Positions 3,118 to 17,782 of a stretch of 20,000 nucleotides of DNA are shown one piece after another. The position numbers and the translations under genes were made by a program. Position 1 is the stretch's first letter. The number at the start of each line of letters is the position of its first letter. The notes below the pieces were generated by a model, which searched no databases, was not told the origin of the DNA, and was given only the letters and a program-made list of their open reading frames with translations. Source of the stretch: an uncultured virus (IMG/VR IMGVR_UViG_3300025033_000016) (taxonomy: Duplodnaviria > Heunggongvirae > Uroviricota > Caudoviricetes); the IMG/VR virus record IMGVR_UViG_3300025033_000016; one strand, 5' to 3'.

Positions 3118-3381
3118 TTAGTCTGCTGTATTGAGGTCTTCAACCAAGGCGTCTCTAACTAACTTCCTAGTATAAGCCTCATAGCTCATTAAATCAGTTT
3201 CTTCAACGCCATAACGCCTATCTCTATCATCTAGCTGCTCTGACATTATTAAGTATCTGAACTTATTATCGTGACCCCTGGCTGACACTAATACTCTAGC
3301 AGGTCCGTACACTATCTCACCGTTATGCAGTAATACTACCCGCTCGTCGTAATTAAATAAAGGCTTTACTTGTATTGTCAT
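3118..3381 (-). CDS. Small beta-rich protein with C-terminal RDxLREDL-type tail
   Basis: Strong SD AAGGAGGT; ends RKLVRDALVEDLNTAD. Confidence 0.8.
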   Translation of the reverse strand: MTIQVKPLFNYDERVVLLHNGEIVYGPARVLVSARGHDNKFRYLIMSEQLDDRDRRYGVEETDLMSYEAYTRKLVRDALVEDLNTAD

Positions 3382-3419
3382 GCAGTTACCTCCTTGTAAC
3401 TAGCTATATCGTAATTAGT

Positions 3420-3836
3420 TTACACTTGTCTAGTGTCGGCTACTATCTGCAGCCTCTTACTAGATTCTAGCCTATTCTTGTTATCCATTATCACGACATC
3501 CAATGCTTTCTTAGGATTCCGATAGAAGCCTGTAGTGCAATCATTGCCTACCTTAAGGAATAGGCCGCTCCATCTCGTGTGGAAGAAGCTTAGGATAGCC
3601 GAGTCAGCTCTAAGCCAGCCTTGTCCAGCATCGAACTCTGCGAACCTCTTATTGATTGATTTAGCTGTAACCTTGTTAGAACTCGGTACAGCGCATATAA
3701 CGCGTACTTCTCTTCCAACCTTACTACAAAGGGCATGTAGAGCGCTACTTAGCTGCTTACCTCCCTTAGACCGCATAACTCTATAGCTAAATCCATCAGT
3801 CACTAAGTAAATTACATGCTTGTCTAATATTAACAT
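3420..3836 (-). CDS. Hypothetical protein, possibly a degenerate T5orf172/GIY-YIG-like fold
   Basis: Layout VIYLVTDG...VRVICAV...INKRF....GQGWL....ILSFF resembles T5orf172/Mug113, but the KIG, conserved E and GEWF residues are altered. Confidence 0.5.
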   Translation of the reverse strand: MLILDKHVIYLVTDGFSYRVMRSKGGKQLSSALHALCSKVGREVRVICAVPSSNKVTAKSINKRFAEFDAGQGWLRADSAILSFFHTRWSGLFLKVGNDCTTGFYRNPKKALDVVIMDNKNRLESSKRLQIVADTRQV

Positions 3837-3849
3837 AAGCTTATCTCTA

Positions 3850-3878
3850 AGTATAACACGTATACAAATAAAATGCAA
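3850..3878 (-). promoter_or_regulatory. sigma70-type promoter for the leftward arm
   Basis: Minus strand TTGCAT-17nt-TATACT with TG extension, 13 nt before ATG 3836. Confidence 0.65.
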
Positions 3879-4390
3879 CCCTTATTCACTTTCTTATTGA
3901 AAATGATACAAAAATATGATATAATCTAGTTATAGATTGTTTAATTCGCAAAGTTAAACACATATGCAGCATACCAAAGAGCTGTTGCAGCATAAACAAA
4001 CAATGCAGCAAATAAACATGAACAATGTTGCATAAACAAATCCAATAAATGATGCCATTGCAGCGAATGCATAGCAACAATCACAGATTTTATAGCGATT
4101 ATATCTTTAGGCTGAAGGGGATAGTTATACCCTACTTTTAGGGTGTAAATTCATAGCATTTATGAATAGATCTTACTTAGCTTGTATGCTAATAAATTCA
4201 GCTACTTACAAGTACACCCCGATAGGCAATGAATACATTAGTGAATAGATAACACCTTAGTACTGCGAAACTAACGATACCTATGATTTTATATTGCGTG
4301 ACGCTTAGTGTTATGCGATGTACTAAGTGCAATCATCCCCCCAGTTCCGCAACACCCCCCTTCTTTTTTAGGTAGCTTAATCTGGAAGAC

Positions 4391-4401
4391 TGTGGTATAG
4401 T
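4391..4401 (+). promoter_or_regulatory. Extended -10 promoter, leaderless
   Basis: TGTGG-TATAGT, then 6 nt, then ATG 4408; T-tract upstream; weak -35. Confidence 0.55.
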
Positions 4402-4407
4402 TTGTAT

Positions 4408-4761
4408 ATGAGTAACAACTGGTGGAAAGGTTTATCTAAAGAGCAGATAGCTGGTATGAGTTTTACGCTTGCGGAGAGCAGCGCTTTGTATAAATCAAGA
4501 GCTTACACTTTTCCAGAAAGTAACGTGTTTAGAGTTGTAGCGATCCCTAAACGTACAGCTATGGAGTTTTTTATAATCCAGCCAGCAGATAGCTTAGGTC
4601 TTAACGAAGGCTGGAAATTCGAGCATGTCAGTAGTTATAACGTATTAACTAGCTTTGATCCTAAAAAGGGGTGCTGGGGATTAAAGCCTACAGAGTTAGT
4701 GCCTGTAGATCTCAGGCATAGATTAGTCCGAGATAGCTTAAGAGAGGATCTGTTAAAATGA
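4408..4761 (+). CDS. Hypothetical protein with C-terminal RDxLREDL tail
   Basis: Ends DLRHRLVRDSLREDLLK; ATGA overlap with thyX. Confidence 0.8.
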   Translation: MSNNWWKGLSKEQIAGMSFTLAESSALYKSRAYTFPESNVFRVVAIPKRTAMEFFIIQPADSLGLNEGWKFEHVSSYNVLTSFDPKKGCWGLKPTELVPVDLRHRLVRDSLREDLLK

Positions 4762-5417
4762 GCAACATAAAAGTAGATTACGTAGATCATATGGGGAATG
4801 ACTTGACTGTTGTAAATTCAGCTAGGGTTTCCTTTGGTAAAACTAAGACCACGTTAGATGAGTCTGATATTAAGCTTCTTAATTATTTAGCAAAGCACAA
4901 GCATTATACGCCATTTGAGCATTGTACGCTTACGGTGCTTGTTAAATGCCCGCTATTTACCCGAAGTCAGATACATAGACACAGGACATTTTCTTACAAT
5001 GAAATTAGCCGAAGATATACGGCAGAGAAGCTTGAATTTTACATTCCTAAAGTTTATAGGAAGCAGCACGATAAGAGTAAACAGTGCTCAAGTGGTAATT
5101 TTGAAAGCTCTGACAACGAGGTGCTAGTCAATAAAACTAAGAAGCTACATAAAGAGAGTATTGAGCTTTATAATGAAATGATCGATAAAGGCGTTGCTAG
5201 AGAGATGGCTAGGGGCATATTACCACAGAACCTAATGACTGAGTTTTGGATGACAGGTAATCTCAGGAATTGGATTCATTTTTTAGATTTACGAGTTGAT
5301 TCCCATGCACAGCAAGAAGTAAGGGATGTTGCGCAGCCGATTTTAGAAATAATTGAAGCTAAGTTCCCAGAAGCATCGAAAGCTTTATTTAAACATTCAA
5401 TGTCTTCAGGAGGCTAA
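4758..5417 (+). CDS. thyX: FAD-dependent thymidylate synthase ThyX
   Basis: ThyX signature RHRTFSYNEISRRY, plus ARVSF, KHYTPFEH, AREMARGILP, GNLRNWIHF and HAQQEVR. Confidence 0.97.
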   Translation: MSNIKVDYVDHMGNDLTVVNSARVSFGKTKTTLDESDIKLLNYLAKHKHYTPFEHCTLTVLVKCPLFTRSQIHRHRTFSYNEISRRYTAEKLEFYIPKVYRKQHDKSKQCSSGNFESSDNEVLVNKTKKLHKESIELYNEMIDKGVAREMARGILPQNLMTEFWMTGNLRNWIHFLDLRVDSHAQQEVRDVAQPILEIIEAKFPEASKALFKHSMSSGG

Positions 5418-5419
5418 CG

Positions 5420-6034
5420 GTGGGATTTAACGTAGACGTAAAGCCTTTAATCAAAGTCCTAGTCCGTAAGGAATTCTTACATAACTTTGAAGAAGGACAT
5501 GGAGAGTTTGAAGAGGGCTATATCTTTGGAGCTTGTGCTATGAAGAGTAGACCCTTATTATTTCACGTACATCTAAAGAGCGGCGCTAAGTTTATACGCC
5601 TACCTATCAACGCCTTTTGTACTAAGAAAGATGCGCCTTTAGAGGTTATTGGAGACTTGGAGTTATGGGACTGCTTAGCCTCAGAAGTAAGCTGCCATCA
5701 GTACAACTATTTCAAGAACTATGAAGTGCTAGTTAAATTGAAGAGTGGTACACATTGGGGTAGATACTTGCTTACCTTCGATTTTCCGCCCAGCGGAGGA
5801 TTAGAAGAGACTCCAGATCAACACAAGGACTTTAATCTGATTGAGCTAGAGAACGGCAATCTAGCGCTACAGCCTAATAACACGCTGCTATGGGTTGATG
5901 AGCACTTTACAGGTAAGCCTACCGGAGTACCTAGTTATAAGGCAATGCAGAAATATTGGCTAGTTGAACGCGAAGACTTTAGAGACTTTTCAGATGACGA
6001 GTCTTATTTTTACATACCAAAGAAAGAAGACTAA
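5420..6034 (+). CDS. Hypothetical phage protein
   Basis: 204 aa; GTG start with GGAGG SD; motifs VRKEFL..GHGEF, LWDC, HK, GNLALQPNN look conserved but no function recognised. Confidence 0.8.
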   Translation: MGFNVDVKPLIKVLVRKEFLHNFEEGHGEFEEGYIFGACAMKSRPLLFHVHLKSGAKFIRLPINAFCTKKDAPLEVIGDLELWDCLASEVSCHQYNYFKNYEVLVKLKSGTHWGRYLLTFDFPPSGGLEETPDQHKDFNLIELENGNLALQPNNTLLWVDEHFTGKPTGVPSYKAMQKYWLVEREDFRDFSDDESYFYIPKKED

Positions 6035-6035
6035 C

Positions 6036-6203
6036 ATGCAAGGAACAGTAACTGTACTACATTTTATACTATCCATACTGTGTATATATGCGCTGCTAAT
6101 TAGCGCCTCAGTAGGCACGTTTAATTGGATAGCGATGCTAGCATTTGCGTTTAATGCGGTAGCTATGTTGCGAGCTTTAGACAAGGTATTAAATAATGAT
6201 TGA
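6036..6203 (+). CDS. Small two-helix membrane protein
   Basis: Start ATG 6036 (MQGTVT...); two hydrophobic segments. Confidence 0.65.
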   Translation: MQGTVTVLHFILSILCIYALLISASVGTFNWIAMLAFAFNAVAMLRALDKVLNND

Positions 6204-6459
6204 AGCTGTCGGCTGGGTAGCCGGGATTCTATTCGCCTTCTGCGCCTTCCCACAAGCTTATCAGTCTTATAAATCTGGACACTCTGTTGGGATTAATCCT
6301 TGGCTGCTGTGGATGTGGTGGCTTGGTGAAGTTCTAATGATTATTTATGTATATGTAAAGCATGGATTTGATGTCCCGTTGATGATTAATTATATTGGTA
6401 ATCTATTCTTTTTAGCTTTTATTATGAAATTCTACTATTTTCCTAGACAACCTAAGTAA
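6196..6459 (+). CDS. PQ-loop / SemiSWEET-like membrane protein
   Basis: Three TM segments with FPQAYQSYKSGHSVGIN loop and PLMINY in TM3; 87 aa. Confidence 0.85.
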   Translation: MIEAVGWVAGILFAFCAFPQAYQSYKSGHSVGINPWLLWMWWLGEVLMIIYVYVKHGFDVPLMINYIGNLFFLAFIMKFYYFPRQPK

Positions 6460-6525
6460 ACAGTGTTATAGTCTTATAAAGCCCTAAGCAAGGCTCTAAA
6501 CTGCTTATCATAAAAGGAGATAAAT

Positions 6526-6714
6526 ATGAGTAAAAAATCACGTTATATTGGAGTTAGTTTTTCAGCAGGCCGTACTAATCCTTGGAGAAGTAGAGCTTCT
6601 ATCAACGGCAGTACTATCTTCTTAGGCTACTTTAAAACACAAGCCGACGCAGCTAGGATGTATAACGACTTTATCAAGGCTAGTGAGCTTGATCGCCCGC
6701 TAAATAGCCTGTAA
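6526..6714 (+). CDS. Stand-alone AP2 DNA-binding domain protein
   Basis: KSRYIGVS...WRSRASING..IFLGYF.T..DAARMYN matches the AP2 pattern; SD AAAGGAG; no HNH domain. Confidence 0.85.
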   Translation: MSKKSRYIGVSFSAGRTNPWRSRASINGSTIFLGYFKTQADAARMYNDFIKASELDRPLNSL

Positions 6715-6722
6715 GGGTTATT

Positions 6723-6995
6723 GTGAGAGTAAAAGAAGTTTTAACATTAGTGGCGATTCTCCTGTTAATCACAGGGGCTTCGTCATATCTTTCCTATAAA
6801 ACCGGACACGGTGAGGGTCAAGTAGCAGCTTGTTCTAAAATAATACCAATTGCTCCGCTACTAAAACTGCTCGTTAAAGACTGCCTAGTAGAAAAGCAAC
6901 AGCTAATTCTAATTCTAGGAGATGATAGCGAACTAAATGTAGATAGACTATATGAGGAAGAAGATGCTACTGAAGATTCTACAGCTAGTGAGTAA
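6723..6995 (+). CDS. Membrane-anchored hypothetical protein
   Basis: N-terminal hydrophobic helix, two Cys, acidic tail. Confidence 0.6.
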   Translation: MRVKEVLTLVAILLLITGASSYLSYKTGHGEGQVAACSKIIPIAPLLKLLVKDCLVEKQQLILILGDDSELNVDRLYEEEDATEDSTASE

Positions 6996-7368: not shown

Positions 7369-7646
7369 AGCTTTATTTAATAGCCTTAGTCCTATCTCTA
7401 GGAGCCTGCGCTACAAAAGCCGTAATAGACGAGAAGAGTAAATATAATTTAGTTGACCATAAGGTAGTTAGCCTATATGCTGGTTGTATTGAAGGCTTTA
7501 TGGAAGTAATTAAACTTGATATGTATAGAAGACCTAAGAAATTTAAGACACCTAAAGAAGCGTCCGATGCAGTTAAGCACGCTTGCCATTACCGATCAAT
7601 GCTATATCAATACTATCTGGAGAAGAGCTTTTTTGGAAAAGAGTAA
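7365..7646 (+). CDS. Putative lipoprotein
   Basis: MKLYLIALVLSLGAC: signal peptide with lipobox LGAC; SD GAGAGG. Confidence 0.75.
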   Translation: MKLYLIALVLSLGACATKAVIDEKSKYNLVDHKVVSLYAGCIEGFMEVIKLDMYRRPKKFKTPKEASDAVKHACHYRSMLYQYYLEKSFFGKE

Positions 7647-7869
7647 CTACAGCTTTAAAGTCGGGGATATCGTAGTACGTAAGCATACCCCCGCAACTAA
7701 GTATAAAGTGATCGAAGTGTTAAGTGAAGATCTAGCTTATGGTAGTACCAGTGGTAGATTTGACGTGCCCTTCGTATTACTGACTACGAAAGACTATATA
7801 CTAGAACCCGAGGCCGCGAGATATAAAGCTGTCAGGAATTCACTACGTGACGACTTAAAAGGAGAATAA
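7633..7869 (+). CDS. KOW/SH3-like small protein with RDxLREDL-type tail
   Basis: Probable TTG start 7633 after GGAGAAGAG; FKVGDIV at the N-terminus; ends ARYKAVRNSLRDDLKGE. Confidence 0.75.
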   Translation: MEKSNYSFKVGDIVVRKHTPATKYKVIEVLSEDLAYGSTSGRFDVPFVLLTTKDYILEPEAARYKAVRNSLRDDLKGE

Positions 7870-7871
7870 CT

Positions 7872-7943
7872 ATGGACCTAACTAAAGCATTTAAAAGAAT
7901 ACTTCCACCAATGATTGCAGGAGCTGTATGTTTCCTGAGCTAA
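7872..7943 (+). CDS. 23-aa mini ORF, or frameshifted 5' part of the next gene
   Basis: Strong SD AAAGGAG; MDLTKAFKRILPPMIAGAVCFLS; its TAA overlaps ATG 7943 of the next frame. Confidence 0.4.
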   Translation: MDLTKAFKRILPPMIAGAVCFLS

Positions 7944-8257
7944 TGTTATTAGAGCCTAAACTTATTCGTAGTGGGGGCATAGCAGTCTCCGATCATATAT
8001 TTGACAAGCATTTATTACAGCACTTGCTATATATACATAAAACCTCTTTAAAAGACTACTCTGCCGACGAATTAAGAGAAACTTTGAAGCTATCTACAAA
8101 AGGCGCTACTCCTGTATACAATAACTTCACTCTATTTGCTGGAGATTGGCGACGTAGGCTAGCCGCGCTAGAGCTGCTAGAAGAGCAAATGCCTAAATTT
8201 AAAGCTACTTCAGTTAGAAGCTCACTACGAGATGATTTAATGGTTGACAAGACCTAA
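7928..8257 (+). CDS. Hypothetical protein with RDxLREDL-type tail
   Basis: Ends KATSVRSSLRDDLMVDKT; start at 7928 or 7943. Confidence 0.75.
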   Translation: MFPELMLLEPKLIRSGGIAVSDHIFDKHLLQHLLYIHKTSLKDYSADELRETLKLSTKGATPVYNNFTLFAGDWRRRLAALELLEEQMPKFKATSVRSSLRDDLMVDKT

Positions 8258-8272: not shown

Positions 8273-8278
8273 ACAAAT

Positions 8279-9586: not shown

Positions 9587-10297
9587 ATGCGCTGGTTATT
9601 CTTTTTTCTATTCCTATTTAGCGCTCAAGCTGAAGCTACTATAAAAGTAGCGGTAATAGATACTGGTATTAATTTAGCCATATTAGATAACAAAGAAGCC
9701 AACGGCCTATGCCCTACAGGTCACATAGACTTCACTGGTACTGGGTTGCATGACTCAGATTACCGAGAGCACGGCACTAACATATCAGGGATTATTCATA
9801 AGTTTGCTAGTAATACTAAGTACTGCCAGATCATTTATAAATACTGGAGTGAGCAAGCTACGCCAGCCCAAACCTTAGATTGGATGATACGGTCGATTAG
9901 AGCTGCGGTAGCAGCCAAGGTTGATATTATAAACATCAGTAGCGGTGGGGCTCAGTTTTCATATGCAGAGCGTCTAGCAGTAACTGAAGCCTTAGATCAA
10001 GATATTATTGTAGTAACAGCCGCAGGTAATAGCGGAGCCTTGTTAGCACATTGTACTCCTAACTCAGTATGCCCTACAGAATCTACTTACTACCCAGCTA
10101 TGTATGATTCTAGGATTAAAGTGGTAGGCAGCGCAGATCTATTTGGTAGACCTCACAGCTTCTCTAACAAGGGACCCCTAGTCAATACTTGGGAGATAGG
10201 CAAAGGCGTACAAGGTGCCTACGGGCCTAAGCTATCAGGTACTAGCCAAGCAGCTGCCGTGCATACTGGTAAGCTGATTTTCTCTAAGATACCTTAG
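9587..10297 (+). CDS. Secreted S8 subtilisin-like serine protease
   Basis: Signal peptide (AEA); catalytic Asp VAVIDTG, His HGTNISG, oxyanion Asn AAGNSG, Ser SGTSQAA. Confidence 0.92.
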   Translation: MRWLFFFLFLFSAQAEATIKVAVIDTGINLAILDNKEANGLCPTGHIDFTGTGLHDSDYREHGTNISGIIHKFASNTKYCQIIYKYWSEQATPAQTLDWMIRSIRAAVAAKVDIINISSGGAQFSYAERLAVTEALDQDIIVVTAAGNSGALLAHCTPNSVCPTESTYYPAMYDSRIKVVGSADLFGRPHSFSNKGPLVNTWEIGKGVQGAYGPKLSGTSQAAAVHTGKLIFSKIP

Positions 10298-10359: not shown

Positions 10360-10365
10360 ATGAAT

Positions 10366-10689
10366 ATGCACACACAGTTTTTTAAACCTGGAGACATAGT
10401 TAAAGATAACTCAAACCCCGATGAGTTTTTGTACGAGGTAGTTGCATATGATTTAGCCGACTATTGGATGGTAGCTATTCCTTATCCAGAAGCTCCACAT
10501 ACAAAGCCCGATAACTCTCTATCTATTTTAGCTGGGTACTATAAACTAAGCCATGATGTGCAGCCTTATATCGATAACTATGGACCAAACACGAGCTGGC
10601 GTTGGCTAAAGCAGGATTCCGTCACTAAATACGACGGCAGGGCTAAAATCGTACGAGCTGCTTTAAGGGAGGACTTGGCTAGTGAATAA
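10366..10689 (+). CDS. KOW/SH3-like protein with RDxLREDL-type tail; paralog of 12185-12523
   Basis: FKPGDIV start; shares AYDL and LSHDxQPxIDxYG with the 12185 ORF; ends DGRAKIVRAALREDLASE. Confidence 0.8.
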   Translation: MHTQFFKPGDIVKDNSNPDEFLYEVVAYDLADYWMVAIPYPEAPHTKPDNSLSILAGYYKLSHDVQPYIDNYGPNTSWRWLKQDSVTKYDGRAKIVRAALREDLASE

Positions 10690-11285: not shown

Positions 11286-11614
11286 ATAAACTAAACATAG
11301 GCGACAAATTCTGGGTATCGGGCTATTACACCAATGATGACGTAGGCGACGTTACAGAGTTTTAGGTAGTGGACTATTACAGCGACGCTTTCATTAACTC
11401 CAGCTACCTAGCTAAGCCAGCGGGCTCTGATAAGACGCCTAGAGTATTCACCGACTATGGCTCCCTAGATGTTCTAGGAGCTAAGGTATTTAAAAGCCTA
11501 GAATAATTGGAAGCTTACAAAGAAGAGTCTGCGGATTATCACAGACGTAGGGAACTAGCGCTGTCAGTAGCTGAGGAGATCTTCCCTGAAGGTAACTGGG
11601 ATGAGCTTGTATAA
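11282..11614 (+). pseudogene. Interrupted KOW/SH3-like gene with two in-frame stops
   Basis: ATG coupled to the upstream TGA; MNKLNIGDKFWV...TEF*(TAG 11363)VVDYY...KSLE*(TAA 11504)LEAYK...WDELV*(TAA 11612); final stop overlaps the next gene's SD. Confidence 0.65.
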
Positions 11615-11624
11615 GGAGAATAAT

Positions 11625-11891
11625 ATGAAGAATATACAAGTAGGCGATATAGTTAGTTTTAAACACAATCAAACCCTAGGTTATATCGTGGAAATAGACT
11701 TCGAAGATGAGAACGATGAAGGTCTGCTTCCCATAGCCGTAATGCCGCTTTCCTTTGAAGATAGGGACCGTTACATTGAAAGCTGGTGGGAACCTAAACA
11801 CCTTAGAAAAGCCTCGGACTCTGAGATAACTGAGTTCTTAGCTAATTCTCTGCGATATCACTTAATTGAAGACTTTAAGGCTGTAGTATAA
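11625..11891 (+). CDS. KOW/SH3-like protein with degenerate tail
   Basis: SD TAAGGAG; IQVGDIV...GYIVEI...WWEPKHL; ends NSLRYHLIEDFKAVV. Confidence 0.8.
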   Translation: MKNIQVGDIVSFKHNQTLGYIVEIDFEDENDEGLLPIAVMPLSFEDRDRYIESWWEPKHLRKASDSEITEFLANSLRYHLIEDFKAVV

Positions 11892-12184: not shown

Positions 12185-12523
12185 ATGACTAAAAAGCGGG
12201 AATACAAGTTTAAACCGGGGGATATTATACAAGAGGCGGAGTTTATAGAACTTCCACATAAGCAGTATAAGGTATTAGCTTATGACCTAGAGGATGATAT
12301 GATATTAGCGGTAGCTTGGCCATCGCCGTCTTTGCCAGGACTAGGGCATTCTGGGCTAAGCCACGTGAAACGACTCCGTAGGCTAAGCCACGATATACAA
12401 CCGCACATAGATAAATATGGCAATGCTGATTATACTTGGTTAGCGAACGGGATAACTGAACTATCAGACAACCGCCCTAAACTAGTCAGAGATGCCTTAC
12501 GGGAGGATTTACTAGGTGATTAA
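12185..12523 (+). CDS. KOW/SH3-like protein with RDxLREDL tail
   Basis: YKFKPGDII; ends DNRPKLVRDALREDLLGD. Confidence 0.82.
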   Translation: MTKKREYKFKPGDIIQEAEFIELPHKQYKVLAYDLEDDMILAVAWPSPSLPGLGHSGLSHVKRLRRLSHDIQPHIDKYGNADYTWLANGITELSDNRPKLVRDALREDLLGD

Positions 12524-12761
12524 ATATAAAGTAGGTGATATAGTAACCGCTATATCTTACACTGGCGCTGACTTGTTTAAGATTGCGGCTATATATGAGT
12601 TCAATCCAGAGCCTAACAATTTTACATACGATCTACTTAGAGTATCCCCTAAGCCGGGCCGTGCTGATCGCATCTACAAGACCTACTACGAGATTAAACT
12701 AGCAGATCAGCGGCCTAAGGCCGTTAGGGACTCGCTACGGGAGGATTTAGCTAATGACTAA
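12516..12761 (+). CDS. KOW/SH3-like protein with RDxLREDL tail
   Basis: GTG start with GGGAGG SD; YKVGDIV; ends ADQRPKAVRDSLREDLAND. Confidence 0.82.
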   Translation: MIKYKVGDIVTAISYTGADLFKIAAIYEFNPEPNNFTYDLLRVSPKPGRADRIYKTYYEIKLADQRPKAVRDSLREDLAND

Positions 12762-12972
12762 GTTTAAACCGGGGGATATTGTTAAAGGCAATTATTCTGG
12801 AAAAGAGCAGTTATTTACGGTACTAGATTATGATGCTAGCACAGATACCGTACTGATACAGCTACGTTCTGATACACGAGTGGGTTGGAGAGCAGTTCCA
12901 GAGAGTCTTACCTTAGCAGATCAACGTCATCAAGTAGTTAGGGATGCCTTGAGAAAAGACTTGTTAGACTAG
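12754..12972 (+). CDS. KOW/SH3-like protein with RDxLREDL-type tail
   Basis: GGGAGG SD; FKPGDIV; ends ADQRHQVVRDALRKDLLD. Confidence 0.82.
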   Translation: MTKFKPGDIVKGNYSGKEQLFTVLDYDASTDTVLIQLRSDTRVGWRAVPESLTLADQRHQVVRDALRKDLLD

Positions 12973-13135
12973 CAATATCAGCTATTTGCTATTTATGAAG
13001 GCTATATTTAACGTTTATGTGATAAGGGTTTGATGAAAGTTAAGTAGGTGTTATTATTCTCCAAAATGACGGGAGCGTGATTTTTTGAGTATCGAAACCG
13101 ATCACCACCCAATAACCCCAACCACCCCCCCCCTA

Positions 13136-13236
13136 TGGCACGCTATTTGCAATAGCAATTTATATGCCACCTAACTTGGCACGCTTCTTGCTCCCCCTGC
13201 AATAACTATACCTAAGGAGCTGGCATGGAACTTGCT
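13136..13236. promoter_or_regulatory. Cluster of five sigma54 (-24/-12)-type boxes in alternating orientation
   Basis: + TGGCACGCTATTTGCA (13136-13151); - TGGCATATAAATTGCT (13154-13169); + TGGCACGCTTCTTGCT (13177-13192); - AGGTATAGTTATTGCA (13198-13213); + TGGCATGGAACTTGCT (13221-13236). All have GG-N10-GC spacing. Confidence 0.8.
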
Positions 13237-13279
13237 ACGCGCACGCGTATCCTCTAATATGTAGACCGACCAGATCGCC

Positions 13280-13359
13280 TGTCAAAGAACTATACACTGT
13301 ATAACTTTTAGACACCAAGCATATCACACACTTACAACGAAGCGTCAATAACTTCGACA
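13280..13359. promoter_or_regulatory. Palindromic enhancer-like (UAS) sites
   Basis: TGTCAAAGAACTATACA (13280-13296) and TGTATAACTTTTAGACA (13298-13314), both TGT-N11-ACA; CGTCAATAACTTCGACA (13343-13359). Confidence 0.55.
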
Positions 13360-13384
13360 CCACTAATCCTCCTGCATCCAATGA

Positions 13385-13397
13385 TATCAATGCGTTA
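13385..13397 (+). promoter_or_regulatory. IHF-binding consensus
   Basis: TATCAATGCGTTA matches WATCAANNNNTTR and lies between the palindromes and the sigma54 box. Confidence 0.55.
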
Positions 13398-13402
13398 CGT
13401 GC

Positions 13403-13418
13403 TGGCACGGCATGTGCA
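13403..13418 (+). promoter_or_regulatory. sigma54-type promoter of the small-gene operon
   Basis: TGGCACGGCATGTGCA; predicted +1 near 13429, then GGGAG SD and ATG 13451. Confidence 0.7.
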
Positions 13419-13450
13419 ACGTACTATGATAGAAACGGGAGACATAGAAA

Positions 13451-13591
13451 ATGAAAACAATACTTCTATCAGACAATACAATCGTAATCATGTACAAAGC
13501 TTGGATACTCGTCACAGCTAAAGGGACGCGCAAGGATATTCCTAGACTCACGGAACTAGCGCAAGAGCGTCTACTTGAGGTAGCGGCGTAA
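13451..13591 (+). CDS. Small hypothetical protein (46 aa)
   Basis: GGGAG SD; MKTILLSDNTIVIMYKAW...EVAA; TAATG coupling to the next ORF. Confidence 0.65.
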   Translation: MKTILLSDNTIVIMYKAWILVTAKGTRKDIPRLTELAQERLLEVAA

Positions 13592-13677
13592 TGGCTAAGA
13601 TCGTACGGGTTAAGAAAATAACCATAACTTCACACAACATCCTAGTAAAACTAGGCTACACTGTAGTATACGTATAG
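13591..13677 (+). CDS. Very small hypothetical protein (28 aa)
   Basis: GAGGT SD; MAKIVRVKKITITSHNILVKLGYTVVYV. Confidence 0.55.
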   Translation: MAKIVRVKKITITSHNILVKLGYTVVYV

Positions 13678-13691
13678 GAAAGGAATAGACT

Positions 13692-13895
13692 ATGACATTA
13701 ATGATTCTAATAACTGTAGCCGCTTTGACTTGGTACATTCTAGGGACTCGCAGAGCTTGGTACGACAACGATGGTCTAGTAATGATGATATTCGTAGCCC
13801 TGGCAGTATGGGGTATCGGTAGCTACTTGGTAGACGTACCTAGTATAATGGAAACAGTGGCGAACGTAGCCGCTACAATCGAAGGGAGTAAATAA
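13692..13895 (+). CDS. Two-TM membrane protein
   Basis: AAGGA SD; two hydrophobic helices. Confidence 0.7.
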   Translation: MTLMILITVAALTWYILGTRRAWYDNDGLVMMIFVALAVWGIGSYLVDVPSIMETVANVAATIEGSK

Positions 13896-13897
13896 TC

Positions 13898-14032
13898 ATG
13901 GGTTTAATCTTAACTGTACTAATTGGCTTGATGCTGCTAGGGTATCTAATCGCTGGGAGCGCTGGGGTCTTGACTGTACTCGGCATCTTAGGTCTAGTGT
14001 TCCTAGTATTCATCTATGAGGTGGTATCATGA
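13898..14032 (+). CDS. Small hydrophobic membrane protein (44 aa)
   Basis: GGGAG SD; MGLILTVLIGLMLLGYLIAGSAGVLTVLGILGLVFLVFIYEVVS; ATGA overlap with the next gene. Confidence 0.65.
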   Translation: MGLILTVLIGLMLLGYLIAGSAGVLTVLGILGLVFLVFIYEVVS

Positions 14033-14304
14033 TACATAGACTTCAAACAATCGAGGGGCAAGTATCGTACTACCATAATCAGTTACTACTTAGTATTGTC
14101 GCTATAGAGCGCTTTGGTGTAGCCTTGCTGCAGCCTCAAGACTATGAGGCTTATGAGACGTTGACTAATGAATACGCCAAGACTTGGGAAACTAAGCCGG
14201 ACTCTAAGCCCAAGCTTAGGCAGCTTAGATTCACGGTAGCTAGGCTAAACAGGCTAGTGGATGATATCAGCGGTGATTATCAGAAAAGGACATACAATGA
14301 CTAA
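14029..14304 (+). CDS. Hypothetical protein
   Basis: GAGGTG SD; 91 aa helical. Confidence 0.7.
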   Translation: MIHRLQTIEGQVSYYHNQLLLSIVAIERFGVALLQPQDYEAYETLTNEYAKTWETKPDSKPKLRQLRFTVARLNRLVDDISGDYQKRTYND

Positions 14305-14551
14305 AACAGTACAATCAATTGAAACTAGATACTTAGGTCCCACGAATAGACAAGGTAGCCGTATTAAGGCTTTATACGCCTCTACAGCGATAGTATTACC
14401 TTATGACCATGGTGCTAAGGATACCCATACTAAAGCAGCTACGGCGCTCCTAGAGCGTCTAATAGCTAACGGTGGGGTATCTAACAGCACTACACTAGGG
14501 GTTAGGGTAGCTACTCCCAGGGGATTCATTTATACCCTGATTGAACCTTAA
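14297..14551 (+). CDS. Hypothetical phage protein
   Basis: Start ATG 14297 with AAGGA SD; QSIETRYLGPTNRQGSRIKA is a motif I recall from small phage early proteins. Confidence 0.75.
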   Translation: MTKTVQSIETRYLGPTNRQGSRIKALYASTAIVLPYDHGAKDTHTKAATALLERLIANGGVSNSTTLGVRVATPRGFIYTLIEP

Positions 14552-14718
14552 CGTAACATAAGAGGTCAAATTAGAATTTCACTAGGTCGTTTTAGCCTAA
14601 CGCACTGTATTTATAATGCAGCGCATCAGTGACTAAACCTTGACGTAACGGCTATAATTGACGCTTAGGGCTATAAATAGCGGCGTATCAGTACTAAGAA
14701 AAGAAGGAGAATGACGCA

Positions 14719-14910
14719 ATGCATAAGAGAAAAGACATAACACAGTATAGTGAGGCAGAACTAAGCCTATTAGTATTCAATGACGAGGGTTTGTACAGCA
14801 TTAGGCACCAACCCCAGCTAATTGAGGTATTACATGACTGCTATGAGTTCACCGATGAGCAGCTAGCTACGCTTCAGGGAGACTTAGATGCAGATTTGGA
14901 GTGTAACTAG
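14719..14910 (+). CDS. Small acidic hypothetical protein
   Basis: AAGGAG SD; DITQYSEAELSLLVFNDEGLY; 63 aa. Confidence 0.75.
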   Translation: MHKRKDITQYSEAELSLLVFNDEGLYSIRHQPQLIEVLHDCYEFTDEQLATLQGDLDADLECN

Positions 14911-15342
14911 GGGAATGGGGAGAAATGTGGAGGTCTGTCATTCAGTATCAATTTCAGGGTATTAGTGAGTATCAACTCAGGGTTTATTAGGGTTTACTAA
15001 GTAGTACTATCCTGGTACTCTGGGGCAGCTATTCAAGTCTATTCCTGGCACTGCTTAGGCATATCACAGATACTATGCAGTACTTCTATCAGGGTATTCT
15101 AATATACTCCCTAGACTCTTATATCTTATAGGTGCTTTATGGTTGTTTTATGGATGTTATTTAGTACTATAGCTTCTCTTAGTCTTATGCTTCTATATTA
15201 GTCTATGCTTAGTATATTCTTTAGCTTAGCTTACTTTAGTTTACTTATAGGGTATATTAGTATCATAGCTATTATACCTTACTACAATACTCTTATATAC
15301 CTTAGATATCCTTATAGACTTACCCGCTTGCCCTATACCTGA

Positions 15343-15355
15343 TATCAAGTACTTA
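15343..15355 (+). promoter_or_regulatory. IHF-binding consensus
   Basis: TATCAAGTACTTA matches WATCAANNNNTTR at the end of a long T-rich non-coding tract. Confidence 0.4.
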
Positions 15356-15609
15356 GGAGGATAGGCTTAACTAGGAATATGGCGACTTAAGGGGCAGCGT
15401 TACGAGGCTTTTAAAGGCTCTCTAAGCAAGGCTAAAGATGGCACTAGTAACCCTAGCTTTTAGCTTAGATCGTGGCTTAGAAGGCAGCCTAGAGCGCCTC
15501 ATGGCAAGCTAATAGCCCTGTCAAAGAGTACCGATCTTTAACCAGGCACTAAACGTAACTTTTAATTAAACATAACCATAACTTAATAACACTAGCCTAG
15601 ATATTGTGC

Positions 15610-15638
15610 TAGACTTAGATTAGAAGCATTGCTACTAT
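15610..15638 (+). promoter_or_regulatory. sigma70-type promoter
   Basis: TAGACT-17nt-TACTAT with TG extension, upstream of AGGAG SD and ATG 15660. Confidence 0.5.
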
Positions 15639-15659
15639 GCAAGGCTTAGGAGAAATATA

Positions 15660-16082
15660 ATGTTAACTAGTCAAGATATACACAAGCTGCCTATAGGCAC
15701 TATACTAATATCTAGAAAATATGATATGAAGGCTGCGGCTAATCAGAGACGCATTAAGGAAGGATTTAGAAGAATGAAGCTACTAGAATACCACGTGACA
15801 GGGGCAATTGAACGAGGCGAAGCTGAGCCGATAGTATGCGTTAAGCCGCTACCTACCTTGGTTTACTTTAAGAAGTTCCCCGAAGGTGACGTAATAGCCT
15901 TAATGCCTAGGGAAGCATACAATCATCATAGCACTGATATCATGAGTTATCAGCGAATAGGGCAACATGGGGCAGCTAGTATTGAACTATTGACAGAATT
16001 AGAGGATGCTGATAGGGTAGAGCGTAACAGTCTTAAACGGGAACTAATTAGCTTAGGCTATCACATAATTGAAGGGAACTAG
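15660..16082 (+). CDS. Hypothetical phage protein
   Basis: AGGAG SD; C-terminal half VYFKKF.EGDVIAL.P...SYQRIGQHG...LKREL..LGY looks like a conserved phage domain of unknown function. Confidence 0.75.
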   Translation: MLTSQDIHKLPIGTILISRKYDMKAAANQRRIKEGFRRMKLLEYHVTGAIERGEAEPIVCVKPLPTLVYFKKFPEGDVIALMPREAYNHHSTDIMSYQRIGQHGAASIELLTELEDADRVERNSLKRELISLGYHIIEGN

Positions 16083-16083
16083 T

Positions 16084-16554
16084 ATGAAACTAATGAAAAC
16101 ACTAACAATTGCAGGACTTTTAGCACTAGCCGCGTGCGGCAGCGATCAGGTTACTATCGTACAATCATGTAGCATTGAGGACACTAGCGAAGGTGTAGCC
16201 ATGACTTGTGGTGACGTGACCGAACTAGTTAGGCACGGCTCTAACGGCTTAGACGGCGCTAACGGAGTCGATGGAGTAGACGGGCTAGACGGCACTAATG
16301 GCTTAGATGGCGTCGATGGACAGGATGGCGCTAACGGACTAGACGGCCAAGATGGAGTAAGTCCTATCTTAGCCATTATCGACCCTTGCGGAGATAATCC
16401 AGGTAAGCCGGACGAGGTGCTCTTTCAACTTGATTCAGGCATAGCAGCTTGGTACCAGGACATTGGCTTAGTACTACTAGGCAATCGTAATTACATTACT
16501 ACGGACGAACAAGCTTGTAGGTTTAGAATCACTAACGGACAATACTCCGAATAA
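16084..16554 (+). CDS. Lipoprotein with acidic collagen-like Gly-X-Y repeat
   Basis: Lipobox LAAC; uninterrupted G-X-Y run (GSN GLD GAN GVD ... GQD GVS); Cys-containing flanks. Confidence 0.85.
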   Translation: MKLMKTLTIAGLLALAACGSDQVTIVQSCSIEDTSEGVAMTCGDVTELVRHGSNGLDGANGVDGVDGLDGTNGLDGVDGQDGANGLDGQDGVSPILAIIDPCGDNPGKPDEVLFQLDSGIAAWYQDIGLVLLGNRNYITTDEQACRFRITNGQYSE

Positions 16555-16562
16555 TATTAGCG

Positions 16563-16597
16563 GGCCTTTGTTAGACTATCTAGCAAGGGCCTTTATT
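16563..16597 (+). terminator. Intrinsic terminator-like hairpin
   Basis: GGCCTTTGTTAGA-CTA-TCTAGCAAGGGCC stem (two G-U pairs) followed by TTTATT. Confidence 0.65.
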
Positions 16598-16607
16598 AAA
16601 ACTTAAC

Positions 16608-16636
16608 TTGACGCTAGGTGTTAACCTTGCTATTCT
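16608..16636 (+). promoter_or_regulatory. sigma70-type promoter
   Basis: TTGACG-17nt-TATTCT with TG extension. Confidence 0.7.
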
Positions 16637-16657
16637 TAAATTATATCGGGGAGGATT

Positions 16658-16867
16658 ATGGCTATGCAAGTTAGAGACTTCATACTAAATATGGACTACC
16701 CAGCTAAGCGGTGGTATATGCAAACGATGCGCAATAGATTAGACTACGGCATTGAGGACTTAACAGACTGTAAGTGTATAGCTGAGGAGGTATTCTTCGG
16801 CTATGTGCTACCCTATAACTTAGATAATGCCGAGCAACTAGACTTGTTCGAAACTTTGGAGGACTAA
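16658..16867 (+). CDS. Hypothetical protein with QLDLF motif near the C-terminus
   Basis: GGGGAGG SD; ends AEQLDLFETLED. Confidence 0.7.
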   Translation: MAMQVRDFILNMDYPAKRWYMQTMRNRLDYGIEDLTDCKCIAEEVFFGYVLPYNLDNAEQLDLFETLED

Positions 16868-17436
16868 TGAGATTCACTAATATTAGAAATAAAGACGGTA
16901 AGACTTTGACTACCTATGAGACTGTAATCATGGCCGCTACTTTGAAGGACTTGTTAGCCGCGCTAGGGTTCATTACAGATTATGACTTAATTAACAAGCG
17001 CTCCTTTAGACTAAGCTTAAATAGAGGTAGCTTTAGAATTAACACGGCTATGCTAGGTCGAAACGGTAGACGCGACTCTAGGTGGCAAGATACAATCAAA
17101 GGCTACAAGTTTACGGACGTGCCTACCTGGGAGCAACGCAAGGACTACAACCACGAGGTTAACAGGTATCTAGACGAGTTAGGCATTAGCGCTACCGTGC
17201 GTAACGGATTCTACACTATCCGCAAGGGTAGGGAGGCTGTAACGTCATGGACTCCTATGGATAATAGCTTTGATATCGAACCCGCAAGCGACCTACACGA
17301 AGAACTAGACTCGGACGCTAGAATCAAAGCGCACCGCAAAGCTCAATATGCTGAGCGTAAGGCAGCGGCGCAAGCTAGGCGACCTAAAGTAGTAAGGGAT
17401 GCGATTCGAGAGGACTTGTTAAGTGAAACGGTTTAA
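16867..17436 (+). CDS. Hypothetical protein with RDxLREDL-type tail
   Basis: 189 aa; charged helical linker, then ARRPKVVRDAIREDLLSETV. Confidence 0.8.
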   Translation: MRFTNIRNKDGKTLTTYETVIMAATLKDLLAALGFITDYDLINKRSFRLSLNRGSFRINTAMLGRNGRRDSRWQDTIKGYKFTDVPTWEQRKDYNHEVNRYLDELGISATVRNGFYTIRKGREAVTSWTPMDNSFDIEPASDLHEELDSDARIKAHRKAQYAERKAAAQARRPKVVRDAIREDLLSETV

Positions 17437-17782
17437 GTATAGCGGCGAAGGTAGCGTAGACAATGGCGTCTACCTGCACGTACAAGTCAACGATGAAACT
17501 TTTATAGCTAAGGCTATAGGGGAGAAGTATAACGAGTCTAACTACAATTATGACGATCATTGGGAGGATACCATAGTCCAGATACTAAATGCTAAAACAG
17601 GTTGGGACTTCTTTTATACTCCGCAAGATAATAGAGGGTATTGGGACGTAGTAGACGATGAGCATATAGTTGAAGGTGCCGGAGGGTACTACTACCTAGA
17701 CGAACTAACCTCCTGGGAAATAGCCGATCTTAGACCTAAGCTAATACGTGATAGTTTAAGGGAGGACTTGTTAGGTGAGTAA
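17423..17782 (+). CDS. Acidic aromatic-rich protein with RDxLREDL tail
   Basis: GTG start with GAGAGGA SD; ends ADLRPKLIRDSLREDLLGE. Confidence 0.8.
   Translation: MKRFKYSGEGSVDNGVYLHVQVNDETFIAKAIGEKYNESNYNYDDHWEDTIVQILNAKTGWDFFYTPQDNRGYWDVVDDEHIVEGAGGYYYLDELTSWEIADLRPKLIRDSLREDLLGE

What the first reader, a model, noticed from the sequence alone, without database searches (positions are those of the whole stretch)
3118..17782. Eleven dispersed small proteins share a conserved C-terminal tail (VRDxLREDL): a possible phage protein-addressing system
Seen in sequence. C-termini are RKLVRDALVEDLNTAD (3118-, minus strand), RHRLVRDSLREDLLK (4408), RYKAVRNSLRDDLKGE (7633), KATSVRSSLRDDLMVDKT (7928), RAKIVRAALREDLASE (10366), NSLRYHLIEDFKAVV (11625, degenerate but in register), RPKLVRDALREDLLGD (12185), RPKAVRDSLREDLAND (12516), RHQVVRDALRKDLLD (12754), RPKVVRDAIREDLLSETV (16867) and RPKLIRDSLREDLLGE (17423). 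The motif always ends 2-5 residues before the stop. Codons vary synonymously (Arg CGA/AGG/AGA/CGT, Ser AGC/TCA/TCG/AGT), so selection acts on the peptide, and the i/i+4/i+8 hydrophobic spacing fits one amphipathic helix. The bodies differ: some are KOW/SH3-like, while 4408, 7928, 16867 and 17423 are unrelated. None of the recognisable enzymes, membrane or secreted proteins carry it. Inference: a portable tag that sends varied cargo to one partner, e.g. capsid loading/ejection (analogous to the N-terminal T4 capsid-targeting sequence), a shared scaffold or host complex, or an AAA+ machine or protease. I do not recognise a named family for it.
Basis: partly seen in the sequence, partly recalled or inferred. 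Interest (0 to 1): 0.92.

Follow-up and report, generated by a model that had tools for sequence, protein, structure and literature searches.

The report
Shared tail helix on phage proteins
About a fifth of the genes of an uncultivated 78-kb phage encode small proteins that end in the same short helix, a related phage uses a different version of it, and it is probably a docking tag whose partner is still unknown.

Summary
All 11 tails are present, and the window holds a 12th decayed copy. The whole ~78-kb phage genome has 30 tailed genes out of about 135 ORFs, and every motif ends 0-5 residues before a stop.

At least 18 carriers are one expanded family: a Tudor/SH3-like small barrel, a linker and a terminal helix. 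At least five have other bodies, including a Gad2-family nucleotidyltransferase-like protein whose outside relative lacks the tail.

Selection acts on the peptide, because synonymous sites are saturated, equally so on non-barrel bodies. The 3' part is also dual-coded. In 23 of 30 tails the R-E-D codons form the Shine-Dalgarno site and the last codons hold the next gene's start. This explains the fixed distance to the stop.

A related phage (capsid protein 79% identical) has about 16 tailed genes with a different shared tail (V-x-E-E-V-x-E-W-L). Bodies interleave between the two phages, but tails sort strictly by genome. One tail was recently copied onto an unrelated body.

The best reading is a body-independent docking helix for one genome-specific partner, spread as a junction cassette. 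The partner is unidentified. This scan has noted analogous shared tails, with other motifs, in other phages.

The parts
3118..3381 (-). Tailed gene, 87 aa. It ends ...TRKLVRDALVEDLNTAD, with the motif core at 3133-3156. The body's best match is its positional counterpart beside the lysozyme gene in the related phage G003.
4402..4761 (+). Tailed gene, 119 aa, motif core at 4729-4752. The thyX start (ATG at 4758) overlaps its stop (ATGA). The body is a borderline barrel-family member.
7633..7869 (+). Tailed barrel gene, 78 aa from the probable TTG start at 7633 (the ORF is listed from 7516). Motif core at 7834-7857. No overlapping downstream ORF of at least 30 codons.
7928..8257 (+). Tailed gene with a non-barrel body, 109 aa, motif core at 8216-8239. 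By eye it looks like a paralog of the weakly tailed L006 8869-9219 gene. That similarity was not scored.
10360..10689 (+). Tailed barrel gene, 109 aa, motif core at 10654-10677. The next gene's GTG at 10682 lies inside the tail's last codons.
11601..11891 (+). Barrel gene with a degenerate tail (...NSLRYHLIEDFKAVV), motif core at 11853-11876. No downstream overlapping ORF.
12185..12523 (+). Tailed barrel gene, 112 aa, first of a tandem trio. Motif core at 12488-12511. The R-E-D codons (CGG GAG GAT) act as the Shine-Dalgarno site for the GTG at 12516.
12516..12761 (+). Tailed barrel gene, 81 aa, second of the trio. Motif core at 12726-12749. The next gene's ATG at 12754 lies inside the tail's last codons.
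12754..12972 (+). Tailed barrel gene, 72 aa, last of the trio. Motif core at 12940-12963. This is the protein that was modelled: barrel at residues 9-54, linker at 55-59, tail helix at 60-71.
15730..15777 (+). Decayed copy: RLRLIRDALRKDLEE-stop in a 15-codon frame with no start codon, out of frame with an upstream barrel-like N-terminus that starts at 15660. Its SD-like AGGAAGGA and an ATGA-overlapped start for the downstream ORF (MKLLEYHV...) are retained. It is also present in the near-identical record G001.
16867..17436 (+). Tailed gene with an unrelated 189-aa body, motif core at 17395-17418. The next gene's GTG at 17423 lies inside the tail's last codons.
17423..17782 (+). Tailed gene, 119 aa, motif core at 17747-17770. 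The body is a borderline barrel-family member and an orphan among 1.84 billion representative proteins.

Best explanation
The tail is a terminal amphipathic helix of about 12 residues (x-V-R-D-S-L-R-E-D-L-L). It works independently of the protein body as a docking tag for one partner that is constant within a phage.

Shown:
- It began as, and mostly still is, the C-terminus of a lineage-specific, greatly expanded family of small Tudor/SH3-like barrel proteins arranged in tandem arrays.
- Its last codons also carry the Shine-Dalgarno site (R-E-D read as AGGGAGGA or GAGGA) and the start codon of the next gene. Tail plus initiation site therefore form one compact junction cassette.
- The peptide is under long-term purifying selection on barrel and non-barrel bodies alike.
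- A related phage has the same system with a different tail, sorted strictly by genome.
- One tail was recently copied onto an unrelated body.

Inferred:
- The cassette spreads by tandem duplication and short-patch recombination. This is how the tail reached unrelated bodies such as the Gad2-like enzyme and the membrane-anchored protein.
- The variable bodies bind varied targets or carry out varied activities, probably in host takeover or anti-defence.
- The constant helix brings them to one reader.

My rough odds within this reading are a host hub 0.2, the procapsid interior (loading for co-injection, as with the T4 internal proteins) 0.15, and a protease or AAA+ machine 0.15.
For: - Position and excess: 12 of 12 window hits lie next to a stop, against 0.007 hits expected. 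There are 23 regex hits in 135 called proteins, against 0.018 in residue shuffles.
- Genome-wide count: 29 ORFs with E<0.01 plus one weak case.
- Peptide-level selection: codon position identities are 0.59, 0.78 and 0.40. In the V-R-D-S-L-R segment, which lies outside the overlap, identical residues share a codon in 29% of barrel-by-barrel pairs and in 25% of pairs between the five strictly non-barrel tails and the rest. Both equal the chance value from codon usage. Amino-acid identity is 0.68 and 0.61 respectively.
- Body independence: the tail-stripped barrel HMM finds no similarity in 9 of the 14 carriers outside the 16-member core used to build it (5 strictly non-barrel, 4 unresolved) and in none of 81 non-tailed genes. 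The 228-aa carrier matches Gad2 clusters (feature score 0.96; structure TM 0.61/0.77 over residues 1-164). Its outside homolog P0015 (35% identical) ends without the extension or the tail.
- Appendage, not fold core: the AF2 model has a barrel, a 5-residue linker and a helix. The best structural matches cover model residues ~1-59 only.
- Genome-specific tag: G003 (capsid 79%, scaffold 62% identical) has 0 hits to our tail HMM. It has 16 ORFs that end in [KQ]-x-K-x-V-x-[DE]-E-V-x-[DE]-W-L.
- Bodies interleave, tails do not: the best body match lies in the other phage for 15 of 45 proteins, including the reciprocal non-barrel pair L006_3797/G3_32095. The best tail match lies in the other phage for 0 of 45.
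- Transfer: 1 of 435 tail pairs is 38/39 nt identical, with random identity just upstream and different bodies.
Against: - No partner was found, and no binding was shown.
- About two-thirds of the carriers are one family, so a family-intrinsic role for the helix is not excluded.
- Part of the motif and its position are explained by dual coding with the next gene.
- Concerted change between the two phages could come from homogenisation of the junction cassette rather than from co-evolution with a reader. The barrel N-termini are also genome-specific, and one conversion event was seen.
- Only two phages carry the system, so co-variation cannot be tested.
- Against procapsid loading specifically: one carrier is membrane-anchored, the tailed genes sit among DNA-metabolism genes, and our scaffold's C-terminus does not resemble our tails.
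Confidence: 0.5

Rival explanations
1. Family-intrinsic helix plus hitch-hiking. The helix is a structural or stabilising part of the barrel family. It appears on other bodies only because recombination moves the junction cassette (tail end, Shine-Dalgarno site, next start), which is kept because the downstream gene needs it. There is no addressing function.
For: At least 18 of 30 carriers are one family. 23 of 30 tails overlap the next gene's start, and all 23 have SD-like R-E-D codons, against 1 of the other 7 (Fisher p 1.2e-5). The Glu column is GAG 18 times and GAA once, against 50:50 genome-wide. G003 puts the next start inside its E-W codons in 11 of 16 tails. One recent conversion event was seen. 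The decayed copy at 15730-15777 keeps its SD and the downstream start.
Against: The cassette needs only the last ~20 nt, yet V-R-D-S-L-R upstream of it is conserved at saturated synonymous sites, equally on the five strictly non-barrel bodies. The 7 tails with no overlapping downstream ORF still keep V-R-x-S-L-R and the invariant Asp. A non-barrel orthologous pair kept a tail in both phages. The structural matches to the barrel do not include the helix.
Confidence: 0.22
2. Self-association tag. The helices pair or bundle with each other, so the ~30 proteins form homo- and hetero-oligomers, giving a combinatorial network of bivalent binders.
For: Inference only. The helix is amphipathic (hydrophobic moment 0.45), with invariant Arg and Asp that could form reciprocal salt bridges in an antiparallel pair. 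Genome-specific tails would then be self-consistent without any other partner.
Against: A four-turn helix with an Asp in the middle of its hydrophobic face is a weak candidate for a stable coiled coil. Nothing in the data points to oligomers.
Confidence: 0.1
3. Degron or adaptor tail for a protease or AAA+ machine. The tail would deliver the protein itself, or whatever its body binds, to a Clp-type or MoxR-type machine. Candidates are the phage's ClpP-like protein working with a host unfoldase, or the MoxR/VWA-metallopeptidase pair.
For: The phage encodes a ClpP-family protein directly downstream of three tailed genes, a MoxR AAA_5 ATPase and a DUF2201 VWA/metallopeptidase protein. The architecture of variable binding domain, linker and constant C-terminal peptide resembles known adaptor families (recalled, not tested).
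Against: With 30 tailed genes among ~135 ORFs, adjacency means little. No ClpX/ClpA-type unfoldase was found among the 69 proteins scanned against Pfam. The ClpP-like protein's best family hits are head-maturation proteases, and all are below the curated cut-offs. The tail does not resemble known Clp recognition tails (recalled).
Confidence: 0.13
4. Nascent-peptide coupling element. The last ~18 residues would act inside the ribosome at termination, slowing release and so promoting initiation at the overlapping start of the next gene.
For: The conserved stretch is about what the exit tunnel holds at the stop codon. It always abuts the stop, and in 23 of 30 cases it abuts an overlapping start. 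It does not depend on the body.
Against: The 7 tails without a downstream ORF are still conserved. The i/i+4/i+8 pattern and the confident helix in the model suggest a folded surface helix. The two phages' tails differ strongly, although ribosomes are conserved.
Confidence: 0.05

Closest known systems
Capsid targeting sequence (CTS) of phage T4 internal proteins
   Same: A highly diverse set of small phage proteins, several of them anti-defence, shares only one short conserved terminal peptide that addresses them to one place. [quoted passage not shown]
   Different: The T4 CTS is N-terminal and is removed by the prohead protease (recalled). Here the tag is a C-terminal helix on about 30 genes. 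It is dual-coded with the next gene's start. Virion location is untested.
Helix-and-hook C-terminus of the phage 80alpha scaffold and SaPI1 CpmB
   Same: The last 16 residues (an 11-residue amphipathic helix and a short hook) bind the capsid protein, and an unrelated small protein carries a near-identical copy that binds the same site (PMC5644958, passages seen). Our tail has the same size and form.
   Different: Our scaffold's C-terminus (...LSDWMYS) does not resemble our tails. G003's scaffold end (...INDWLYG) does rank first of 64 against G003's tails, but the E-W in those tails is partly forced by an embedded start codon.
Encapsulin cargo-loading peptides
   Same: A short C-terminal peptide on varied cargo directs it into an HK97-fold shell, and it is transferable to foreign proteins (PMC11866011, abstract seen in the listing).
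   Different: Those peptides differ in sequence, and a system usually has one or a few cargo proteins. There is no evidence of encapsidation here.
Families of adaptors or substrate receptors with a shared docking module (SspB tail for ClpX, F-box, poxviral ankyrin/PRANC)
   Same: A variable target-binding domain plus a constant short docking element, with lineage-specific expansion. This comparison is recalled and was not tested.
   Different: No cognate machine was identified, and the tail's sequence is unlike those modules.
Tudor / chromo-barrel / SH3 / KOW small beta-barrels
   Same: The fold of the main body: PHF19 Tudor Z 8.4 (rmsd 1.7, 55 aligned), MRG15 chromo barrel Z 8.2, SMN Tudor, Spt5 KOW.
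   Different: There is no sequence relationship. Z values near 8 are common for small barrels. The terminal helix is not part of the matched fold.
Shared C-terminal tails on small proteins of other uncultivated phages
   Same: Many otherwise unrelated small proteins in one phage end in one motif. One note reports that related viruses carry a different tag on the same proteins.
   Different: The motifs and genomes are different, and I did not check those notes.

Membership tests
Tudor/SH3-like small beta-barrel fold (main body) | Five-stranded small barrel of ~55-60 residues | tested here: met
   AF2 model with pLDDT 88 and strands at 9-14, 17-27, 32-37, 44-47 and 53-54. Foldseek TM by target is 0.78 to PHF1 Tudor, but E is only 2e-3. 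VIA Z is 8.4 with rmsd 1.7 over 55 residues.
Tudor/SH3-like small beta-barrel fold (main body) | Sequence membership in a curated family (Pfam or PHROG) | tested here: not met
   No Pfam family reached its curated cut-off, and no PHROG had E<0.009, for any of the 23 tailed proteins scanned.
T4-type capsid targeting sequence | One short terminal peptide shared by otherwise diverse small phage proteins | tested here: met
   30 carriers, of which at least 5 are unrelated to the barrel family.
T4-type capsid targeting sequence | N-terminal position with removal by the prohead protease | tested here: not met
   The tag is C-terminal. Cleavage is not testable here.
T4-type capsid targeting sequence | Carriers are present inside virions | not testable with these tools
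   This needs virion proteomics or an encapsidation assay.
Scaffold-like helix-and-hook (80alpha SP / CpmB) | A C-terminal amphipathic helix of ~16 residues with a short end | tested here: met
   Helix at residues 60-71 of 72 in the model. The motif ends 2-5 residues before the stop.
Scaffold-like helix-and-hook (80alpha SP / CpmB) | Similarity to the phage's own scaffold C-terminus | tested here: inconclusive
   In our phage the scaffold end is not among the 10 most tail-like of 103 C-termini. In G003 it ranks 1 of 64 (shuffle p 0.0075), but this is confounded by the start codon embedded in the E-W codons.
Gad2 (PF26128) for the 228-aa carrier L006 9493-10179 | A match to the family model or clusters | tested here: inconclusive
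   The protein carries a precomputed PF26128 label. The Atlas gives a feature score of 0.96 and structure TM 0.61/0.77 to Gad2 clusters. My own Pfam scan listed no family at E<=1, and my AF2 model failed (pLDDT 40).
Gad2 (PF26128) for the 228-aa carrier L006 9493-10179 | Inhibition of Gabija defence | not testable with these tools
   The function is known only for the Bacillus phage proteins (bioRxiv 10.1101/2023.05.01.538930, passages seen).
ClpP (S14) for L002 8543-9097 | A Pfam CLP_protease match above the cut-off | tested here: met
   92.4 bits against a cut-off of 20.2, covering protein residues 23-184 of 185. NCBIfam models for both head-maturation and ATP-dependent ClpP score below their cut-offs.
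SspB-type adaptor system | A cognate Clp unfoldase that reads the tail | tested here: inconclusive
   No ClpX/ClpA-type family was found among the 69 phage proteins scanned. The host is unknown.

The most novel reading that the evidence does not exclude
The phage runs a genome-specific address code. A fifth of its genes carry one C-terminal docking helix. The helix brings a fast-evolving library of small binder domains and enzymes, including an anti-defence-family member, to a single reader. The purpose would be either to load them into the procapsid for co-injection with the DNA, or to hand bound host proteins to a destruction machine. On this reading the code and its reader diverge together between sister phages, and new cargo is recruited by copying a 45-nt cassette that also starts the next gene.
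Probability: 0.3. Interest if true: 0.85.

Novelty: new variant of a known kind. Interest (0 to 1): 0.72.

Why it matters
If the tail is a docking tag, it offers a simple, transferable handle of 12-16 residues. That handle could be used to find the hub a phage uses to deploy dozens of accessory proteins, and to identify those proteins as one functional class without any homology.

The dual-coded junction cassette shows how a phage can expand, shuffle and re-tag small genes while keeping them translationally coupled.

Together with similar tails noted by this scan in other phages, it suggests that shared terminal tags on accessory proteins may be a recurrent, under-described principle of phage genome organisation.

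Tried and rejected
- **Known families.** Pfam, PHROGs and NCBIfam gave no family for the tailed proteins.
- **Close relatives by sequence.**
  - megablast and tblastn against named phages found none.
  - The search for related loci with single proteins found none.
  - Profile and single-protein searches of 5.8 billion proteins returned only this phage's own proteins, apart from one tail-less homolog (P0015) of the 228-aa protein.
  - A search of 1.84 billion representatives with p17423 returned itself and a repeat protein that I judge spurious.
- **Back-translated tail patterns.** In the viral, metagenome and genome collections they found only contigs of this same phage. What first looked like relatives (L001-L003) proved to be other assemblies of the same genome.
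- **RNA or DNA motif instead of a peptide.** Rejected for the upstream half, because third codon positions are at chance identity. No tRNA or Rfam match was found in the window.
- **Self-association.** The one complex job (two copies of the 72-aa protein) returned no verdict and is not evidence either way.
- **ClpP-like protease as a fellow tag carrier.** Its C-terminus ranked 1 of 103 for similarity to the tails. However, it lies inside the Pfam ClpP domain match, which reaches residue 184 of 185. It is therefore the fold's own last helix, and the tail HMM does not score it. Rejected as evidence.
- **Scaffold internal segment (...NIVRKEMRKDLGE...).** It beat its own shuffles (p 0.005) but is conserved in G003 and does not co-vary with the tails. 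Rejected.
- **MoxR ATPase C-terminus.** Rank 3 of 103, about 2 sd above the mean of the 103. Not significant.
- **Failed or empty attempts.**
  - The AF2 model of the Gad2-like carrier was unusable (pLDDT 40.5).
  - The Atlas gave nothing usable for p16867.
  - No charge signature separates tailed from other small proteins.
  - More distant capsid relatives (33-34% identical: G004, G005) and G006, a fragment with a 100% identical capsid segment, have no hit to our tail profile. I did not look for tags of their own.
- **Literature.** Phrase searches for a phage-encoded ClpP found no paper. A search for conserved C-terminal motifs on paralogous small phage proteins found nothing relevant among the 15 of 71 papers listed. 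I found no paper describing this motif, but I ran no search on the motif itself.

Full report
**1. What is there**

- A six-frame search with a loose form of the motif gives 12 hits in the window.
- Every hit lies 2-5 codons before a stop and none is internal.
- 300 shuffles of the window gave a mean of 0.007 hits.
- The 12th hit (15730-15777) is a decayed copy. It is a tail in a 15-codon frame with no start, out of frame with a barrel-like N-terminus that begins at 15660. Its Shine-Dalgarno-like sequence and an ATGA-overlapped downstream start are still intact. The same remnant is present in a near-identical 20-kb record, G001.

**2. Where the window lies**

- The window is the last quarter of a 78,201-base metagenome contig whose end repeats its start. 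The genome is therefore probably complete and circularly permuted.
- Several loci that first looked like relatives are other assemblies of the same phage, at 99.98-100% identity.
- I scanned the held pieces with a profile of the 11 tails. The genome count is 29 ORFs with E<0.01, one weak case, the remnant, and one internal copy in a natural fusion of two family genes.
- About 1 kb remains unscanned.
- The profile was trained on the window's 11 tails, so the 18 hits outside the window are the independent ones.
- With about 135 ORFs from a crude caller, roughly a fifth of the genes carry the tail.
- All significant hits end 0-3 residues from the end of the frame, except the copy inside the fusion.

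**3. The bodies**

*Barrel family*
- Sixteen proteins share an N-terminal M-x-K-F-K-x-G-D-x-V hairpin and other features. Two more are picked up by a tail-stripped profile at E<0.01: a membrane-anchored protein and the tandem fusion.
- None of 81 non-tailed genes scores better than E 0.35.

*Structure*
- An AlphaFold2 model of the 72-aa member, built on a 21-paralog alignment, is confident (pLDDT 88). It shows a five-stranded small barrel, a five-residue linker and the tail as a helix at residues 60-71.
- The barrel matches Tudor, chromo-barrel, SH3 and KOW domains, for example PHF19 Tudor at Z 8.4, rmsd 1.7 over 55 residues. These matches cover model residues ~1-59 only. The helix is therefore an appendage to a common fold.

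*Other bodies*
- Five carriers are strictly unrelated to the barrel family: 7928, 16867, L006 3797, L006 8869 and a 228-aa protein.
- The 228-aa protein carries a precomputed Pfam label PF26128 (Gad2), and the protein atlas places it with Gad2 clusters. The feature score is 0.96 and the structure TM is 0.61/0.77 over residues 1-164.
- Its one outside homolog ends right after the shared core, with no extension and no tail.
- Gad2 is an experimentally shown anti-Gabija protein with a predicted nucleotidyltransferase domain (bioRxiv 10.1101/2023.05.01.538930, passages seen).
- The function of our protein is not shown. My own Pfam scan and AF2 model did not confirm the family.

**4. Two layers of constraint in the tail**

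*The peptide*
- Across 27 tails, codon positions 1, 2 and 3 are 59%, 78% and 40% identical.
- In the V-R-D-S-L-R segment, identical residues share a codon in only 25-29% of pairs. That is the chance level for this genome's codon usage.
- This holds equally for the five strictly non-barrel carriers, whose amino-acid identity to the rest is 0.61, against 0.68 among barrel proteins.
- The tails are therefore old and kept by selection on the peptide, whatever the body.

*The DNA*
- The Glu column is GAG 18 times and GAA once, against 50:50 genome-wide.
- In 23 of 30 tails an ORF of at least 30 codons starts exactly 7-8 nt after the Asp codon, inside the tail gene's last two codons.
- All 23 have SD-like R-E-D codons, against 1 of the other 7 (Fisher p 1.2e-5).
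- The tails without a downstream gene are the ones where the Glu column drifts (Q, K, D, S, or Glu as GAA), yet they keep V-R-x-S-L-R and the Asp.

**5. A sister phage with a different tail**

- A search with the capsid protein found a 42.5-kb contig, G003. Its capsid is 79% identical, its scaffold 62% and its dCTP deaminase 63%, and it is syntenic with the start of the window.
- G003 has no hit to our tail profile.
- Sixteen of its small ORFs end in another shared motif, [KQ]-x-K-x-V-x-[DE]-E-V-x-[DE]-W-L, 0-3 residues before the stop.
- The two tails align in register, with hydrophobic residues at i, i+4 and i+8, but differ at key positions. Our invariant Asp corresponds to their Trp.
- Tail-stripped bodies are significantly similar across the phages (z up to 7.2).
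- For 15 of 45 proteins the best body match lies in the other phage. These include reciprocal pairs, one of them non-barrel.
- For 0 of 45 proteins does the best tail match lie in the other phage. Mean tail scores are 42 and 34 within each phage and 13 between them.
- The tail therefore changed in concert on lineages that were already separate before the phages split.
- In G003 the next gene's ATG or GTG lies inside the E-W codons in 11 of 16 tails. Part of the Asp/Trp difference reflects where the overlapping start sits.

**6. How the tail moves**

- Of 435 tail pairs, one (L002 9988 and 13435) is identical at 38 of 39 nt. Identity drops to random just upstream, and the bodies differ. This is a recent short-patch copy of a tail onto another gene.
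- All other pairs average 57% nt identity. Conversion is therefore occasional and cannot by itself keep the peptides alike.

**7. What the tail does**

- The data fit a body-independent docking helix read by one partner that is constant within a phage. They do not say who the partner is.
- I looked for tail-like ends on other proteins. The ClpP-like protease ranked first of 103, but its end lies inside the ClpP domain match. It is the fold's own last helix, so I reject it as evidence.
- An internal scaffold segment resembled our tail but is conserved in G003, so it does not co-vary.
- G003's scaffold C-terminus ranks first of 64 against G003's tails. This echoes the 80alpha scaffold/CpmB helix-and-hook (PMC5644958) and the T4 capsid targeting sequence (PMC3012670). 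However, the E-W in the tails is partly forced by the embedded start, and our own scaffold end does not resemble our tails.
- Against capsid loading: one carrier is membrane-anchored, and the genes sit among DNA-metabolism genes.
- The head module runs terminase, portal, a 359-aa protein, scaffold and capsid, with no recognisable protease. The ClpP-like gene lies about 9 kb from the start of the structural block, next to the ribonucleotide reductase genes.
- A complex prediction for self-association gave no verdict.

**8. Verdict**

The tail is a portable, selected, genome-specific tag. However, most carriers are one family, the position rule is a coupling cassette, and the partner is unknown.
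- It is a new variant of a known kind, namely shared terminal address peptides such as the T4 CTS, scaffold-helix mimicry and encapsulin cargo peptides. It sits on a protein family with no relatives outside two uncultivated phages.
- This scan's earlier notes report analogous shared tails with other motifs in other phages. I did not check those notes.

Noticed in passing
L002:4784-7495 (-): The large subunit of ribonucleotide reductase is interrupted by an intein with a LAGLIDADG homing endonuclease (Pfam Ribonuc_red_lgC in three stretches, Intein_splicing, LAGLIDADG_3).
   Followed up: no
L021:9785-11665 (+) in G003, against window 4758-5417: thyX is an intact 219-aa gene in the window. Its counterpart in the sister phage is a 626-aa ORF that matches ThyX only in part and holds an HNH-like insert, probably an intein or homing element.
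   Followed up: no
L009:13426-14955 (-) and L009:16276-16995 (-): The major capsid gene is flanked on both sides by homing-endonuclease genes (HNH type and LAGLIDADG type). The sister phage has a different endonuclease-VII/HNH-like gene downstream of its capsid gene.
   Followed up: no
L020:17557-L021:1928 in G003: The sister phage has seven extra genes between the portal gene and the 356-aa head-module gene that our phage lacks. One is a 166-aa protein with a weak ClpP/crotonase-superfamily PHROG hit.
   Followed up: partly
window 16069-16554 (+): A predicted lipoprotein (its N-terminus reads by eye as a signal peptide with a Cys) with collagen-like G-x-D/N repeats (Pfam Collagen, E 1e-7).
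   Followed up: no
window 9587-10297 (+); L002:11478-12245 (-): Two further proteases whose N-termini look like export signals: an S8 subtilase with a signal-peptide-like N-terminus, and a trypsin/DegP-like peptidase with a hydrophobic N-terminus whose start codon lies inside a tail.
   Followed up: no
window 18713-19816 (+) and L006:12-1202 (+): A MoxR-type AAA_5 ATPase is followed by a DUF2201 VWA/metallopeptidase protein. This pair is widespread in large phages (705 phage records match the ATPase at under 60% identity). The ATPase has a ~30-residue C-terminal extension beyond the PHROG match that is weakly tail-like (rank 3 of 103, not significant).
   Followed up: partly
window 12973-13690 and 14911-15660: Two ORF-poor stretches within the tailed-gene region. 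No tRNA and no Rfam family were found. Promoters and repeats were not examined.
   Followed up: partly
window 15660-16082 (+): The downstream ORF after the decayed tail ends ...DRVERNSLKRELISLGYHIIEGN. This looks like a further, strongly degenerate tail (rank 4 of 103 non-tailed C-termini), so the family may be larger than the 30 counted.
   Followed up: partly
L006:2442-3020 (+): A natural fusion of two family genes: barrel, truncated tail, barrel, tail. The first tail is internal and has lost its last residues, which shows that junctions can collapse into fusions.
   Followed up: partly
window 7872-7943 (+): A 23-codon ORF with a hydrophobic core lies between two tailed genes. It starts 5 nt after an AAAGGAGAA encoded by the tail's K-G-E codons.
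   Followed up: no
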